From Candidatus Scatoplasma merdavium (GTDB lineage: Bacteria > Bacillota_I > Bacilli_A > RFN20 > CAG-288), in contig JADING010000051.1 in assembly GCA_017694135.1 (NCBI GenBank), forward strand, positions 1 through 28,656: 28,656 bases of DNA, written 5' to 3'. Below are positions 20,577 through 28,255 of this stretch, in pieces. Numbering within the stretch: the first letter of the stretch is position 1; the number at the start of each line of letters is the position of its first letter. The notes under the pieces were generated by a model. That model was given only the letters and a program-made list of their open reading frames with translations. It did no database searches and was not told where the DNA came from. Made by a program: the position numbers and the translations under genes.

Positions 20577-23500
20577 ATGAAAACTTTCGAAGAGATATTT
20601 GCAGGTAAGAAGATCCGCTATTTAGAAAACAATCGCGCTGATTTTTCTAAAATTTCTGGTCAATTACCGCTCCCTTACCTCTGCGAGATTCAAACTGCTT
20701 CTTTCCAGTGGTTGCTCGACGAGGGTATCGAAGAAGTTTTAAAAGACTTCTTTCCCATTAAGAACTCTGATGAGACTATGGAGCTTGATTACGTTTCTTT
20801 GTCTTTTGGAGAACCGAAGAACGATTATTTTGAATGCAAATCATCTTCTTTGACATACTCAGCTCCTTTGCATGTCGTTTTGCGTTTAAAACGCGCTGAT
20901 GGCACCATGCAAGAAGGCAAGATTTTTATGGGTGATTTCCCGATGATGACTCAATCTGGCACCTTTATTATCAACGGCGTTGAAAAGGTCGTTGAATCTC
21001 AGATTGTTAGATCGTCTGGCGCTTATATGCACAAAGATGAAATCGCCGCTTCCGCTTCGTATATTTACGGGGCAGATATAATTCCACAAAGAGGAACTTG
21101 GTTGGAGTTCTTATCTGATCCTAAAGGTGTTTTATATGTTCGTATCGATAAGCAGAAGAAGGTTTCTGCTTCCGTTTTACTCCGCGCTTTAGGCTTGGTT
21201 GATGACGCTGATATCTTAGCCTTATTCGGCGATAACAGCATGCTCGTTCACACTCTTGAAAAGAACCCCGCTCCTAATGATGGAAGAGATATTTCTATCG
21301 ATGCTTTAAAGATTATTTACTCTAAGCTCCGTCCGGGTGAACCGGTTGAAGACTCCGATGTCGCCAGACAAATTCGCACGAGATTCTTCAATCACCGCAA
21401 CTATGATTTAGGCCCGGCTGGACGTTTTAAGATCAATAAAAAACTCGGTATTTACAATCGTTTAATCGGCGCTACTTTAGCTGAAGATTTAATTTCCGCT
21501 AACGGTGAAGTCGTATATGAAGCTGGCACCACTTTAAGCCGCGATATGGTCCTGAAGCTAGCTGAAGAGCACTTCTTTGAAGCTGGTGCGCACGTTTACA
21601 ATTTCCCGCTGAACTTCGATTTAGACGATCACAATATTGTTAACATTGTCAAAGTTTACGCCGATGAAGATCAGACTAAGATTGTTAATGTTGTTGGTAA
21701 CAACATGAACAATCAAGAAGAGTTTGTCACTGCTTCTGATATCATCGCTTGCTTCTCTTATTTCACTAATATCATCGATGGCGTCGGTACGATTGACGAT
21801 ATCGATCATTTGGGGAACAGACGTATTCGTTCTGTTGGGGAACTCATTCAAAATCAGTTCCGCACCGGTTTATCGAGAATGGAAAGAATCATTTCCGATA
21901 AGATGTCTGTTTCTAAAGATAAAGAGAACGTCACACCTGAACAGCTTATTAATATCAAGCCTTTAACTTCTGCTATCAGAGAGTTCTTTAATGTGTCTCA
22001 GCTTTCTCAGTTCATGGATCAGACTAACCCTCTTTCTGAACTCGCTAACAAACGCCGTATTTCAGCTTTAGGTCCTGGTGGTTTAACTAGAGATCGCGCT
22101 TCTTTTGAAGTTAGAGATGTCCACTATTCTCACTACGGACGTATCTGTCCAATCGAAACTCCTGAAGGTCAAAATATCGGTTTAATTTCTAACTTGGCTT
22201 GCTACGCGAAGATCAACAAATACGGTTTTATTGAAACTCCGTATCGCCGCGTTAAAGACAAGGTTGTTTCTGATGTCACTGACTACTTGTCTGCTGATGA
22301 AGAAAGATCGCACATTATCGCTCAAGCTAACGTCAACTTAGACGAGAATCACACCATTACTGACGAGAGAGTTTTAGCTAGATACAATGGAGATACAATT
22401 ATGGCTCGCGCTGAAGATGTCGATTACATCGATGTTTCACCTAAGCAGATTGTTTCTATTTCTTCCGCTTGTATTCCTTTCTTGGAAAACGATGACTCCA
22501 CTCGTGCTCAGATGGGTGGTAACATGCAGCGTCAAGCTTTGCCTTTGCTCCGTCCGCACGCTCCGTATGTTGGAACCGGTTTGGAACACAAGATTGCTAA
22601 AGACTCTGGCTTTGCTGTAATTGCTCAAAACGATTTAGTTGTCAGCTACGTTGACGGAACTAGAATCGATACATTAGAAGGGGAAAACAAGGTCCCTCAT
22701 ACATATAAGCTACGCAAGTTCATGCGTTCTAACCAAGGAACTTGCATTAATCAAAAACCGATTGTCAAAGTAGGTCAATTCGTTAAGAAAGGTGAAATCT
22801 TAGCGGATGGTCCGGCTATGGATAACGGCGATTTAGCCTTGGGTCAAAACGTCGTCATCGCCTTTACCACTTGGCACGGTTACAACTATGAAGACGCTGT
22901 TATTATCTCTCAGCGCTTAGTTAAAGAAGATACTTATACCACTTTACACATCGTTGAATATTCTATCGATCGTCGTAAGACTAAAAACGGTAAAGAGCAG
23001 TTTACCGCCGATGTTCCTAACATTTCTCCGAAGATGAAGGCTCACCTCGATGCCGATGGTATCATCGTTCCTGGTAGCGAAGTCAAAGAAGGTGAAATCT
23101 TAGTTGGTAAAACTTCTCCTAAGGGCGACACTGAAGCTTCGCCGGAAGAGAAACTCTTACAGTCAATCTTCTTAGCTAAGTCTAAAGATCAGAAAGATAC
23201 TTCTTTCCGCGTGCCTCACGGCGGTGGCGGTATTGTTTTAGATGTCAAGCGCTTCTCGAGAGAAAACGGCGATGAACTTCAACCTAACGTCTTAGAAACT
23301 GTAAAGGTCTTAGTTGTTCAAAAACGTAAAATTTCCGAAGGTGACAAGATGTCTGGACGTCACGGTAACAAAGGTGTTATCTCACGTATCGTCCGTGAAG
23401 AGGATATGCCTTATTTAGAGGATGGTACTCCGGTTGATATCTTGCTTAACCCTCTCGGTGTTCCTTCCCGTATGAATATCGGTCAGATTTTAGAAGTCCA

Positions 23501-24236
23501 CTTAGGTATGGCTTGTAAGAAGCTCGGTGGATTGAAGGTCGCTACTCCGGTATTCGATGGTATATCTAACGAAGAAATCATGACCATGATGAAAGCTGCC
23601 GGTATGGATGAAGATGGCAAATCTGTCTTGTATTCTGGTGAAACCGGTGAGAGGTTTGATGCGAGAGTCAATGTCGGTGTCATGTATATGATTAAGCTCG
23701 TTCACATGGTTGACGATAAGCTCCACGCTCGTTCAGTTGGTCCTTACTCGTTGGTCACTCAACAACCTTTGGGCGGTAAAGCTCAAAACGGTGGTCAGCG
23801 TTTCGGTGAAATGGAAGTTTGGGCTTTGGAAGCTTACGGTGCTGCTCATGTCTTGCAAGAAATGCTCACTATTAAATCCGATGATATGATTGGGCGTAAC
23901 AAGTGCTATGAAGCTATCTTAAAAGGCCATCCGATCGAAAAGCCTAATATGCCGGAATCCTTCCGTGTTTTGATTAAAGAGCTTCAGTCTCTTGCTATCG
24001 ATGTTCGCTTGTATGAAAAAGATGATAGCGGCGAAGAAAAAGAAGTCGATATCTCTTCTATCACCAGCGATACGATGAACACTGTTCGCAACATCAAACA
24101 CAATATTCAAACTATGGGTGAAAACGCCTCACACGAAGAAACTTCCGCGCAGGAAGAAGAAATTGATGATGACGATATTCACAGATCGTTGCTTCACATC
24201 GTCGAAACAATGGGCGATGATAACGGCAACGAATAA
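20577..24236 (+). CDS. rpoB: DNA-directed RNA polymerase subunit beta
   Basis: [64 protein letters not shown]. Confidence 0.99.
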
Positions 24237-24253: not shown

Positions 24254-27200
24254 GTGTTCGATTTAAATAAACTCACTTCAATTCAAGTTAAACTTGCCTC
24301 CCCGGAAACTATTAACTCCTGGTCTCACGGTGAAGTTAAGAATCCGGAAACTATCAACTATCGCACTCAACGTCCGGAACCCGATGGTCTTTTCTGCGAA
24401 AAGATCTTTGGTCCTACTAAGGACTACCAGTGCTATTGCGGTAAATACCGCAAACCTCGCAATTCTGGTATTGTCTGCGAAAAGTGCGGTGTTGAAGTTA
24501 CAACTAAAGCTGTTCGTCGTGAAAGAATGGGGCATATTAAGCTCTATTCGCCTTGTACGCACATTTGGTACTTAAAAGGCACTCCTTCGCGCATCTCGGT
24601 TTTGCTTAATATTCCTCCTAAACAAGTTGAGGAAGTTATTTACTACGCTTCTCACATCGTTTTAAATCCTGGTACTTCGAAGATTCTCTTCAAAGGGGAA
24701 GTTTTAAATGAACGCGATGCCAGAGAGCAGTTTATCAAAGTTATCGAAGATTTATTGAACTCTAATATCGCGACTGATATCATTCGCGGTCAAGAGTTAT
24801 TAGGCCGCTTGAAATCACCGGATATCCCTGTTGATTTCACGACTACTTCTAAATACATCAACACTTATACCGGCGCTGAATTTGATTGGGGTGCCGCTGC
24901 TATTCAGAAGCTTTTGAAAGAAGTTGACTTAGACAGCGAATTTGAAAAGATTCAAGCGGAATTGAAAACCACTAATTCTCCGAAGAATCAAAAGAGAGTC
25001 AAACTCTTGAAGCGCTTGGAATTAGTCGATGCTTTCCGCCGCTCTAAAAACGATCCTTCTTGGATGGTTTTAACTATCCTTCCGGTTATGCCGCCTGACC
25101 TTCGTCCGATGCTTCCGCTCGATGGAGGACGTTACGCTGCTTCAGATTTAAACGATCTTTATCGCCGCGTTATTATGCGTAATAATCGTTTGAAGAAATT
25201 CATCGATATTCGCGCTCCGCAGATCATTACCATTAACGAAAAGCGTATGCTTCAAGAAGCTGTTGACGCTTTGATTGATAACGGACGCCGTTCTAAGCCG
25301 GTTACCGGTGGTGGAAATCGCCCGCTTAAGTCTCTTTCCAGCCAGCTTAAAGGTAAACAAGGTCGTTTCAGACAGAACCTTTTAGGTAAGCGTGTCGATT
25401 ACTCTGGCCGTTCGGTTATCGCTGTTGGTCCTACTTTGAACATGGATGAATGCGGTATTCCTCGTGAAATGGCTATCAATTTATTCCGTCCGTTTATCGC
25501 TGGTAAGCTCATGGCTGACAAAGTTGCTTCAACCCGCAAACAGGCTGATACAATGATTGACCAGCTAGATGAAAAGGTCTTTGATGCTATTGAAGAAATT
25601 ATTTCTGAGCATCCGGTTTTGCTTAACCGCGCTCCGACTTTGCACCGTTTAGGTATTCAAGCTTTCCGCCCGAAACTTGTCGAAGGACGCGCCATTCGTC
25701 TTCACCCGTTAGTCTGTACCGGATTTAACGCTGACTTTGATGGTGACCAGATGGCTGTTCACGTTCCTTTGTCAAAGAAGGCTCAGCAGGAAGCTATCGA
25801 GTTGATGATCGCTAATCACAACATCTTGGGTCCGAAAGATGGTAAACCTATCTGTATTCCTTCCCAGGATATGTTGCTTGGTAACTACTATTTGACAATG
25901 GAAGAAGACAAAGCCGGTCTCTCTCAACGCGCCAAATATTACCGTCAGCACAACGATGAAGAAGAAGCGAAACATTACGACAATTACATAATTTCGGAAG
26001 GTAAGGTCTTTAAAGACTACAACGAAGTTATGTTGGCTTACTTCAACCACGATGTTTCCTTGCATTCTCGCATCGCTATCCGCGCTTCATCTTTAAAGAA
26101 GAACTACTTCAATAAAGCGATGAAGTCTTCTTACTTGTTAACTACTCCTGGTAAGCTCATCTTTAACTCTATTTACCCTGAAGATTTCCCGTATATCAAC
26201 GGGGCAGAAGATTGCAAGTTTACTCACAACGGTCAACCTTCTTTAATTGAAACTGATGAGAACTATCTTCCGGCTGGGTTTGTTCCTTACGGAACTAATT
26301 TAGTAGAAGCTATTGAAGCCACTCCGCTTCACAAGCCTATCTCTAAAGATGAAATTACCGATATTATTACCGAACTCTTCTACCGTTACCACGCGGAGAT
26401 GACTTCTCATATCTTAGACGCAATTAAGAACCTCGGATTTGAATATTCAACTATCTCTGGTATCACTGTTGCTCTCTCGGATATTTCCGCTAAAACTTCC
26501 GATGGTTCGACCTCGCCTTTAGCTGATAAACAGCAACTGTTTGATCAAGCTAACGAAAAGATCAACAAGTGGCGTGAACAAGCTGATGAAGGTGAACTTT
26601 CTGAAGAAGAAAGATACAACCGCGTTGTTCAAGAATGGCAGAGAGTTTCTTCCGAAGTCTCGAACCGCGTTAAAACCCTTATTTCTCACGAAACCAATAA
26701 CCCGGTCTTCATTATGTCCGCTTCTGGTGCTCGTGGTAAGTTAACTAACTTCGTTCAGTTGATTGGTATGAAGGGCTTAATGGCTAAACCAGATGGTTCG
26801 GCTATTGAAATTCCTATTCTTTCGAACTTTAGAGATGGTTTGACTGTTTCCGAGTTCTTTACTGCTACTCACGGTGCGCGTAAGACCGGTACAGATACAG
26901 CCTTAAAGACCGCTGACTCTGGTTATTTAACTAGACGTTTAATCGACGTTTCTCACGATGTTATTGTCAGGGAAGAAGACTGCGGCTGTGACCACGGTAT
27001 TATTGTTTCTGACATTATGTCGAGAGAAGCTCATCCGGATGATGATATCAAGGGTCAACATCCTGAGGTTATCGTTTCTTTAGAAGAAAGATTAATCGGG
27101 CGTTTCACCGTTCACGATGTTATCAATCCTTCTACCAACGAAGTCATTGTTCCTGCTAATACAATGATTTCAGAGAATCAAGCTTCAGAAATTGTCAAAG

Positions 27201-28255
27201 CTGGCATCAAACAGGTTGAGATTCGCTCTTTGTTTACTTGCGAAACCAAAGATGGTGTTTGTGTCCACTGCTACGGACGCAACTTAGCTACTGGCCGTTT
27301 GGCTCAAATTGGCGATGCTGTTGGTATTATGGCAGCTCAATCTATTGGTGAACCTGGTACTCAGCTCACTTTGAAGAACTTCCACTCTGGTGGTGTTGCT
27401 GGTTCTGACGATATCACTCAAGGTCTCCCGCGTGTTCAGGAAGTCTTAGAAGCTCGTAACCCTAAAGGTGAGGCTTTAATTAGCGATATTCCTGGTTACG
27501 TCAGCGCTATTGAGACTCACGATAAAGATAAGAAGATTTACGATATTACTATCGTTAACGATAAAGTTAATCTTAACAAAGGTGGAATCGAAGTCTACGA
27601 AGAAAAGACTTACACCACTAACGCTCACGCGAATGTCATCGTTGAGGTTAACCAACGCGTTAAAGCTGGCCAAAAGCTCACTTCTGGTGCTATTGATCCT
27701 AAGAAGTTATTGGCTGCTACTTCGGTTAGCGAAGTTGAAGCCTACTTGTTAGAAGAAGTCGAAAAGGTTTATCGCAACCAAGGTATTGGCATCTCTGATA
27801 AGCACATTGAAGTTATCGCTAAGCAGATGCTTAGAAAGATGCTCGTTATTGAATCTGGTGACACTGATTTGTTGCCTGGTTCGAGAGTCGATATCGTCGA
27901 TTTCACTTCTGCTAACAATAAAGTCTTATTAGAAGGTAAGCGTCCGGCGGTTGGAAGTCCGATTGTCTTAGGTATTACTAAGGCTGCCTTGGATACCAAT
28001 TCCTTCTTGTCTTCCGCTTCATTCCAAGAAACCACTCGTGTTTTAACAGATGCGGCAGTTAAGGGTAGAGTCGATCATCTCCACGGCTTGAAAGAGAACG
28101 TTATGATCGGTAAGCTTATCCCGGCTGGTACTGGTTTCTACGGTGATACTACTGAAGAAACTTTAGATAGCAACCCTTATATTAAGAATTCCCGTGAATC
28201 TGAGCTCGAGGAAGAGGAAGAGACTTCTTCTCTTGAATCCGATTACGATTTCTAA
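24254..28255 (+). CDS. rpoC: DNA-directed RNA polymerase subunit beta'
   Basis: GTG start with GGAGG RBS; zinc ribbon, GKRVDYSGRSVI, catalytic NADFDGDQM, SIGEPGTQLT, GLKENVMIGKLIPAGTG. Confidence 0.99.
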   Translation: MFDLNKLTSIQVKLASPETINSWSHGEVKNPETINYRTQRPEPDGLFCEKIFGPTKDYQCYCGKYRKPRNSGIVCEKCGVEVTTKAVRRERMGHIKLYSPCTHIWYLKGTPSRISVLLNIPPKQVEEVIYYASHIVLNPGTSKILFKGEVLNERDAREQFIKVIEDLLNSNIATDIIRGQELLGRLKSPDIPVDFTTTSKYINTYTGAEFDWGAAAIQKLLKEVDLDSEFEKIQAELKTTNSPKNQKRVKLLKRLELVDAFRRSKNDPSWMVLTILPVMPPDLRPMLPLDGGRYAASDLNDLYRRVIMRNNRLKKFIDIRAPQIITINEKRMLQEAVDALIDNGRRSKPVTGGGNRPLKSLSSQLKGKQGRFRQNLLGKRVDYSGRSVIAVGPTLNMDECGIPREMAINLFRPFIAGKLMADKVASTRKQADTMIDQLDEKVFDAIEEIISEHPVLLNRAPTLHRLGIQAFRPKLVEGRAIRLHPLVCTGFNADFDGDQMAVHVPLSKKAQQEAIELMIANHNILGPKDGKPICIPSQDMLLGNYYLTMEEDKAGLSQRAKYYRQHNDEEEAKHYDNYIISEGKVFKDYNEVMLAYFNHDVSLHSRIAIRASSLKKNYFNKAMKSSYLLTTPGKLIFNSIYPEDFPYINGAEDCKFTHNGQPSLIETDENYLPAGFVPYGTNLVEAIEATPLHKPISKDEITDIITELFYRYHAEMTSHILDAIKNLGFEYSTISGITVALSDISAKTSDGSTSPLADKQQLFDQANEKINKWREQADEGELSEEERYNRVVQEWQRVSSEVSNRVKTLISHETNNPVFIMSASGARGKLTNFVQLIGMKGLMAKPDGSAIEIPILSNFRDGLTVSEFFTATHGARKTGTDTALKTADSGYLTRRLIDVSHDVIVREEDCGCDHGIIVSDIMSREAHPDDDIKGQHPEVIVSLEERLIGRFTVHDVINPSTNEVIVPANTMISENQASEIVKAGIKQVEIRSLFTCETKDGVCVHCYGRNLATGRLAQIGDAVGIMAAQSIGEPGTQLTLKNFHSGGVAGSDDITQGLPRVQEVLEARNPKGEALISDIPGYVSAIETHDKDKKIYDITIVNDKVNLNKGGIEVYEEKTYTTNAHANVIVEVNQRVKAGQKLTSGAIDPKKLLAATSVSEVEAYLLEEVEKVYRNQGIGISDKHIEVIAKQMLRKMLVIESGDTDLLPGSRVDIVDFTSANNKVLLEGKRPAVGSPIVLGITKAALDTNSFLSSASFQETTRVLTDAAVKGRVDHLHGLKENVMIGKLIPAGTGFYGDTTEETLDSNPYIKNSRESELEEEEETSSLESDYDF

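What the first reader, a model, noticed from the sequence alone, without database searches (positions are those of the whole stretch)
27371..27385. RpoC trigger loop reads TQLTLKNFH instead of the near-universal bacterial TQLTMRTFH
Seen: ttg aag aac ttc cac = L1040-K-N-F-H1044; three adjacent codons differ, so this is unlikely to be a single base error. Known: E. coli beta' M932 stacks on the incoming NTP base, R933 contacts the triphosphate and H936 assists catalysis; Leu at the first site is the archaeal/eukaryotic state. Inference: altered speed, fidelity or NTP affinity, possibly compensating the bridge-helix change and speculatively suited to scavenged, fluctuating NTP pools.
Basis: partly seen in the sequence, partly recalled or inferred. 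Interest (0 to 1): 0.6.

Follow-up and report, generated by a model that had tools for sequence, protein, structure and literature searches.

The report
Recurrent LKN trigger-loop variant of RpoC
The RNA polymerase of this uncultured chicken-gut bacterium has three changed amino acids in the loop that closes on each incoming nucleotide; the change is real, shared by most of its family and has arisen more than once, but each new residue is a mild one already seen in other polymerases, so it is probably an alternative working solution and not a new mechanism.

Summary
Confirmed: 27371-27385 encodes L1040-K-N-F-H1044 (E. coli M932L/R933K/T934N) in the only rpoC found in this 67%-complete bin, and contigs from three studies carry the same letters. 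The organism is in family CAG-288, order RFN20. LKN is fixed in 51 of 61 readable family genomes, against 120 of 122 MRT in other orders of the class. No single residue is exotic: K933 is common in Patescibacteria, anammox bacteria, archaea and Pol III, and M-to-L is near wild type in Taq RNAP. What I did not find described is the coupling. LKN carriers are not one clade (AU p=1e-5): a lineage in another family gained the same triple plus the same bridge-helix G782T and a beta N-to-S change. In Bacillota K933 came with N934 in 19 of 20 hits, elsewhere in 0 of 99. Covariation with the bridge helix is partial (3 of 4 LKN groups; many T/S782 enzymes keep MRT), and KTGT is private to this species. 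The nucleotide-scavenging idea is unsupported. Best reading: an epistatically coupled, near-equivalent trigger-helix haplotype (0.55); selected retuning is possible (0.25). No kinetics exist. The scan has noted another trigger-loop variant elsewhere, but not this one.

The parts
27371..27379 (+). Variant triplet L1040-K1041-N1042 of the first trigger helix (E. coli M932, R933, T934)
27347..27385 (+). N-terminal hinge and nucleotide-contacting part of the trigger loop; Q1037 (Q929), F1043 and H1044 (H936) are canonical
27386..27433 (+). Short trigger-loop tip without an SI3 insertion and start of the second trigger helix; Gln at the G1136-equivalent as in Thermus and Bacillus
26873..26893 (+). 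Bridge-helix N-terminal hinge G-A-R-K-T-G-T; T878 (26885-26887) is E. coli G782. Two glycines remain (778 and 783) because most sampled relatives have K-G-G
22188..22190 (+). RpoB S538 (E. coli beta N573, numbering from memory): Ser/Ala/Gly in nearly all LKN carriers read (one metagenome contig, L249, has Asn), Asn in most MRT/MKN/MKT relatives
   Evidence: coordinate computed from the ORF start
24254..28255 (+). rpoC, 1333 aa, single copy in the bin; catalytic NADFDGD motif intact
20577..24236 (+). rpoB, 1219 aa, in the rplK-rplA-rplJ-rplL-rpoB-rpoC cluster
   Evidence: gene names from the translations

Best explanation
This is an ordinary housekeeping RpoC whose trigger helix has switched to an alternative, internally coupled haplotype. 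SHOWN: LKN is inherited and fixed; it is connected to MRT through states that exist in living relatives (MRN, MKT, MKN); it has arisen or switched several times; K933 and N934 travel together in Bacillota. INFERRED: Leu still stacks on the NTP base and Lys still puts a positive charge at the triphosphate, so folding-coupled catalysis works as in E. coli or Thermus with at most a few-fold change. Asn934 is the permissive or compensating partner that makes Lys933 acceptable in this enzyme background, and Leu932, beta S573 and bridge-helix T/N782 are later adjustments. The likely driver is drift plus compensation in fast-evolving small-genome gut lineages, followed by entrenchment. A side effect on backtracking or pausing is plausible.
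For: Fixed in 9/9 g1, 40/40 g4 and 2/2 g5 genomes with many synonymous codons. Intermediates: MKN in the sister genus g2, MKT in g7, MRN in G027. At least 4, 5 and 5 changes at 932, 933 and 934 on a 26-taxon tree built without these columns; LKN monophyly rejected, p-AU 1e-5. N934 in 52 of 401 order genomes, 51 with K933. A small-genome clostridial family has 9 MKN, 4 MRN, 0 MKT of 69 read (counted by eye). Bacillota K933 hits 19/20 with N, others 0/99. Taq M1238L near wild type; yeast Pol III has Lys at the 933 site. Even E. coli R933A costs about 4-fold (PMC3325174) and G782A about 2-fold (PMC5791816). Catalytic motifs and the GreA acidic tip are intact.
Against: No kinetic data exist for R933K or T934N in the papers I could search. 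Thermus R1239A costs about 50-fold, so the site can matter. Other small genomes of the class (0.6-1 Mb) keep MRT, so drift alone does not explain why RFN20 varies. The repeat of the same triple plus two distant sites also fits selection. Which residue comes first is not settled (g7 has K without N).
Confidence: 0.55

Rival explanations
1. Convergent adaptive retuning: LKN with beta S573 and T/N782 was selected repeatedly because it gives a different balance of elongation speed, pausing, backtracking or fidelity.
For: The G173/G431 lineage departs at only 24 of 1014 conserved RpoB/RpoC sites, yet includes M932L and R933K and also N934, T782 and beta S573. Its flanks are of its own genus, so it is convergent. 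E. coli M932L lowers occupancy of the backtracked state (10.1101/410746); G782A/V raise fidelity.
Against: Epistasis alone gives the same convergence. No shared ecological or genomic correlate was found: GreA is present and normal in G173/G431 and nucleotide synthesis does not track it. MRT and LKN genera are interleaved in one family.
Confidence: 0.25
2. One reading: the trigger-loop changes compensate for loss of the bridge-helix hinge glycine G782.
For: G782 is replaced in g1 (6/6), g4 (36/39 searched) and G173/G431. In family f3 only 5 of 283 genomes matched a non-G782 pattern and both LKN genomes are among them.
Against: g5 (LKN), g2 and G092 (MKN) keep G782; G155, G473 and four f8 genomes have T/S782 with MRT. 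In the metagenome scan 64 S-L and 5 T-L hinges go with MRT. In g1/g2 the KN change is older than T782. A second glycine (783) remains.
Confidence: 0.08
3. Escape from natural inhibitors that bind the secondary channel or bridge-helix cap (lasso peptides, salinamide-like compounds).
For: T931I next door resists microcin J25 and capistruin (PMC6347699). Salinamide contacts or resistance sites include beta' 738, 744, 782, 783 and beta 677 (PMC4029172), and g1 differs from the E. coli sequence (as I recall it) at these positions.
Against: None of 932-934 was named as a resistance site in the papers read. Several of those positions vary across the whole order whatever the trigger-loop state. No producer or exposure is known.
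Confidence: 0.06
4. One reading: adaptation to scavenged, fluctuating NTP pools.
For: purM and pyrB were not found in this bin (67% complete) or in most of the family. An earlier unchecked note proposes a nucleotide-import operon in this window. K933 is frequent in Patescibacteria.
Against: MRT sisters lack the same genes. G004, G074, G075 and G082 are LKN and keep both. K933 also occurs in anammox bacteria.
Confidence: 0.04
5. Artefact, or spread of one allele by horizontal transfer or gene conversion.
For: Only the two trigger-loop windows of G173 are closer to family f1 than to its own genus.
Against: Independent assemblies agree (L302 repeats the G173 type). Residues about 17 codons upstream and 7 downstream are of the host genus, and a short tract cannot explain the parallel changes at 782 and in RpoB.
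Confidence: 0.02

Closest known systems
Canonical bacterial beta' trigger loop (E. coli M932-R933-T934-F935-H936; T. thermophilus 1238-1242; B. subtilis, PDB 6WVJ)
   Same: Same position and flanks; Q929, F935, H936, the GEPGTQ hinge and the catalytic aspartates are kept; no SI3, as in Bacillus and Thermus.
   Different: All three of 932-934 are replaced; no bacterial structure in the alignments shown has this state.
L-K-T trigger loops of Saccharibacteria, WOR-3, Asgard archaea; yeast Pol III Lys at the Pol II 1082 site
   Same: Leu and Lys at 932/933: 57 LKT and 41 MKT among 120 hits; Pol III Lys from PMC5127505.
   Different: They keep Thr (or Ser) at 934. Asn934 with Lys933 was seen only in Bacillota, and the full LKN only in RFN20-type sequences.
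Lineage-specific trigger-loop variation tuning RNA cleavage (Deinococcus M1271 / E. coli G1136M; PMC4756841)
   Same: Natural trigger-loop substitutions that may modulate catalysis without changing the mechanism.
   Different: That case lies in the C-terminal helix and was measured; this one is in the NTP-contacting residues and is unmeasured.
Epistasis in Pol II trigger-loop haplotypes (PMC5127505, PMC12391331)
   Same: Conserved trigger-loop residues are context-dependent, and natural variants are more easily suppressed.
   Different: Shown by yeast genetics; here it is inferred from repeated natural co-substitution in bacteria.

Membership tests
Housekeeping bacterial RNAP beta' (RpoC) | Catalytic NADFDGD motif | tested here: met
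Housekeeping bacterial RNAP beta' (RpoC) | Single full-length copy next to rpoB in the rplKAJL-rpoBC cluster | tested here: met
   (bin 67% complete, so a second copy is not excluded)
Housekeeping bacterial RNAP beta' (RpoC) | Bridge helix and trigger loop present, with Q929 and H936 | tested here: met
Canonical MRTFH trigger loop | M932, R933, T934 | tested here: not met
Canonical MRTFH trigger loop | Wild-type-like kpol, NTP Kd and fidelity | not testable with these tools
   needs purified enzyme
Family CAG-288, order RFN20 (Bacilli) | Same family as the clade that reads AGG as Met (genus UBA7642, PMC8629427) | tested here: met
   G043 of the same family has 52 AGG codons in rpoBC, most often at Met columns (18), then Leu and Ile (7 each).
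AGG-to-Met recoded clade | AGG at Met columns in this genome | tested here: not met
   both AGG codons in rpoBC sit at Arg columns (only 2 codons)
Archaeal/eukaryotic-type trigger loop | TQMT flank and R-E-G bridge-helix hinge | tested here: not met
   window has TQLT and R-K-T-G; the archaeal hits have TQMT

The most novel reading that the evidence does not exclude
LKN, with beta S573 and bridge-helix T/N782, is a second adaptive peak of the bacterial RNAP active site with measurably different speed, pausing or fidelity, reached repeatedly under selection by small-genome gut Bacillota.
Probability: 0.25. Interest if true: 0.62.

Novelty: new variant of a known kind. Interest (0 to 1): 0.38.

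Why it matters
The NTP-contacting trigger-loop residues are treated as fixed in bacteria and have been probed mostly with alanine mutants. This lineage supplies a natural substitution series (MRT, MRN, MKT, MKN, LKN) in close relatives, with an independent repeat, and names candidate partner sites (beta' 782, beta 573). That makes active-site epistasis, so far shown mainly in yeast Pol II, directly testable in a bacterial enzyme. It does not imply a new catalytic mechanism; if the kinetics are neutral it is a lineage marker and an example of compensated change.

Tried and rejected
Sequencing or assembly error: rejected. Genetic-code effect: a subclade of genus g4 reads AGG as Met, but this genome does not, its LKN codons are unambiguous, and LKN is older than the recoding. 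GreA loss or damage as the cause: GreA found in 62 of 67 family genomes with an intact acidic tip; normal in G173/G431. Strict covariation with KTGT or any non-G782: rejected. Link to loss of nucleotide synthesis: not supported. Horizontal transfer of rpoC to G173: rejected by both gene trees and sliding windows. G232 'TQFTLKLFH' and L045 are off-target matches. The second, MRT-type rpoC in G049 lies on a 2.4-kb contig and falls outside family f1 in the tree, so it was treated as contamination. L260 (g4-type hinge with a Bacteroides-like trigger loop) was treated as a probable chimeric contig. The RNA run X19 holds only a 97%-like fragment that stops before the motif, so it is no evidence of expression. 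Paper searches for the motifs and mutants found nothing on RNAP R933K/T934N; the library lacks most subscription journals. No structure was predicted, because the tools return no contact map and a model cannot rank kinetics. Limits: the genome-wide K933 scan stopped at 120 rows and is not a frequency; the hinge patterns miss Ala/Val/Asp/Glu at 782 (G096 has Val); tallies were read by eye.

Full report
Observation. Window 27371-27385 reads TTG AAG AAC TTC CAC, which is L1040-K-N-F-H1044 of a 1333-aa RpoC, the only copy found in a 0.97-Mb, 67%-complete bin. A proxy sequence aligned without gaps to E. coli beta' 747-942 fixes the numbering: these are M932, R933, T934, F935, H936, and the bridge-helix T878 is G782. 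Contigs from three separate studies span the region with 3-4 other letters, none in the motif, and 14 cluster members carry the same residues. The named holders are mostly chicken gut metagenomes.

Organism. A member of the same family (G043) has 52 AGG codons in rpoBC that align mostly to Met, Leu and Ile columns. [quoted passage not shown] CAG-288 is predicted to lack a wall and spores (PMC10868615). This genome itself has AGG at Arg columns.

Distribution. Of 61 readable family genomes, 51 have LKN (all of genera g1, g4, g5), 2 MKN (g2, sister of g1), 3 MKT, 4 MRT and 1 LRT. The LKN state is written with six Leu codons and both Lys and Asn codons and has not reverted inside these genera, so it is held by purifying selection (inference).

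Repeated origin. Trees of RpoB and RpoC with the trigger loop and bridge helix masked place G173 and G431 (LKN) deep inside an MRT genus of another family. LKN monophyly is rejected (p-AU 1e-5), with at least 4, 5 and 5 changes at 932, 933 and 934 on 26 taxa. Inside family f1, several gains or one gain with reversals cannot be told apart. G173 departs at 24 of 1014 conserved sites, and two of these are M932L and R933K. Its flanks match its own genus, so this is convergence and not transfer. An independent metagenome contig repeats the G173 type (L302).

Coupling. In 401 order genomes N934 occurs 52 times, 51 of them with K933. In a small-genome clostridial family, 69 readable genomes give 9 MKN, 4 MRN and no MKT. 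In another small-genome order of the class the one K933 genome of 55 is MKN. Kin are not independent, so these counts are not a formal test, but the pair recurs in RFN20 families f1, f3 and f5, in Clostridia and in a further order. A second companion is RpoB S538 (E. coli N573 from memory): Ser, Ala or Gly in all four LKN groups, Asn in most MRT, MKT and MKN relatives, with exceptions.

Bridge helix. G782 is replaced in g1 (T), g4 (mostly N, two T) and G173/G431 (T), but not in g5 or the MKN genomes checked. T/S782 also goes with MRT in G155, G473 and four f8 genomes, and in 69 metagenome loci. KTGT is private to this species. Most relatives have K-G-G, so K-T-G still leaves two glycines in the hinge, and E. 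coli G782A is only about 2-fold slower (PMC5791816). In g1/g2 the KN change precedes T782. The link is therefore partial and points from trigger loop to hinge, not the other way.

Mechanism. M932, R933 and H936 contact the NTP when the loop folds (PMC4227799). Taq M1238L behaves near wild type, both M and L occur in bacteria, and yeast Pol III has Lys at the 933 site, where it is a loss-of-function allele in the Pol II context. R933A costs about 4-fold in E. coli and 50-fold in Thermus. E. coli M932L lowers occupancy of the backtracked state. From my own knowledge, the three swaps barely change helix propensity, and helical-wheel reasoning puts 934 away from the NTP, facing the partner helix; neither was computed on a structure. 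The simplest account is that Leu and Lys keep stacking and charge, Asn934 permits or compensates Lys933 in the Bacillota background, and the other sites adjust afterwards (0.55). Selection for altered kinetics is the main rival (0.25), because the convergence is precise and other small genomes of the class keep MRT. GreA is present with an intact acidic tip. Nucleotide scavenging does not track the variant.

Novelty and verdict. I found no paper on this haplotype or on R933K/T934N in bacterial RNAP, though large trigger-loop alignments exist (PMC12391331) and probably contain some of these states. It is a new variant of a known element: real, lineage-wide, recurrent and coupled, with unmeasured and probably modest effects.

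Noticed in passing
G661, G669, G703, G710, G722, G638, G686, G705; G783: Bacterial trigger loops with Asn at 933 (MNV in 7 genomes, MNT in 1), the Pol II state, in a small-genome clostridial family; one MQT in another order. The positive charge is lost, which is more surprising than LKN.
   Followed up: no
order RFN20 family f3, genera g25 and g36: A large clade has Val at 934 (MRV), so position 934 is unusually labile in this order.
   Followed up: partly
G173:C2:109830-109861 and G431:C58:2374-2405: Bridge-helix hinge S-A-R-K-T-G: both G778 and G782 are replaced, leaving only G783; E. coli G778A/G782A is about 600-fold slow. Lys at the G1136 position too.
   Followed up: partly
window rpoB near S538 and the DDSTRAQ motif; rpoC 26816-26893: Genus g1 has further changes around the bridge-helix cap (beta N677T, L680Q, A683G equivalents by my numbering; beta' R744K in 6 of the 8 g1 genomes aligned), overlapping salinamide contact sites.
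   Followed up: partly
G000:C126:1304-1510: GreA of genus g1 has a one-residue deletion in the first coiled-coil helix and scores lower than relatives; acidic tip intact.
   Followed up: partly
G000:C77:190-266 and C7:926-1000: tRNA-Ile with anticodon UAU and tRNA-Pro with anticodon AGG; tilS not found in this 67%-complete bin but present in three congeners.
   Followed up: partly
G043 (L180): Reads AGG as Met, matching the published recoded clade; used for taxonomy.
   Followed up: yes
   Followed up: partly
   Followed up: no
L208, L257, L265, L285, L294, L301, L248: Other Firmicutes-like contigs pair T782 with N934 (MRN): 7 of 12 T-L hinges against 0 of 73 S-L hinges, a hint that 782 and 934 interact; few independent clades.
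   Followed up: no
G031, G037 (family f8) rpoC: About 37-residue insertion in the F-loop just before the bridge helix.
   Followed up: no
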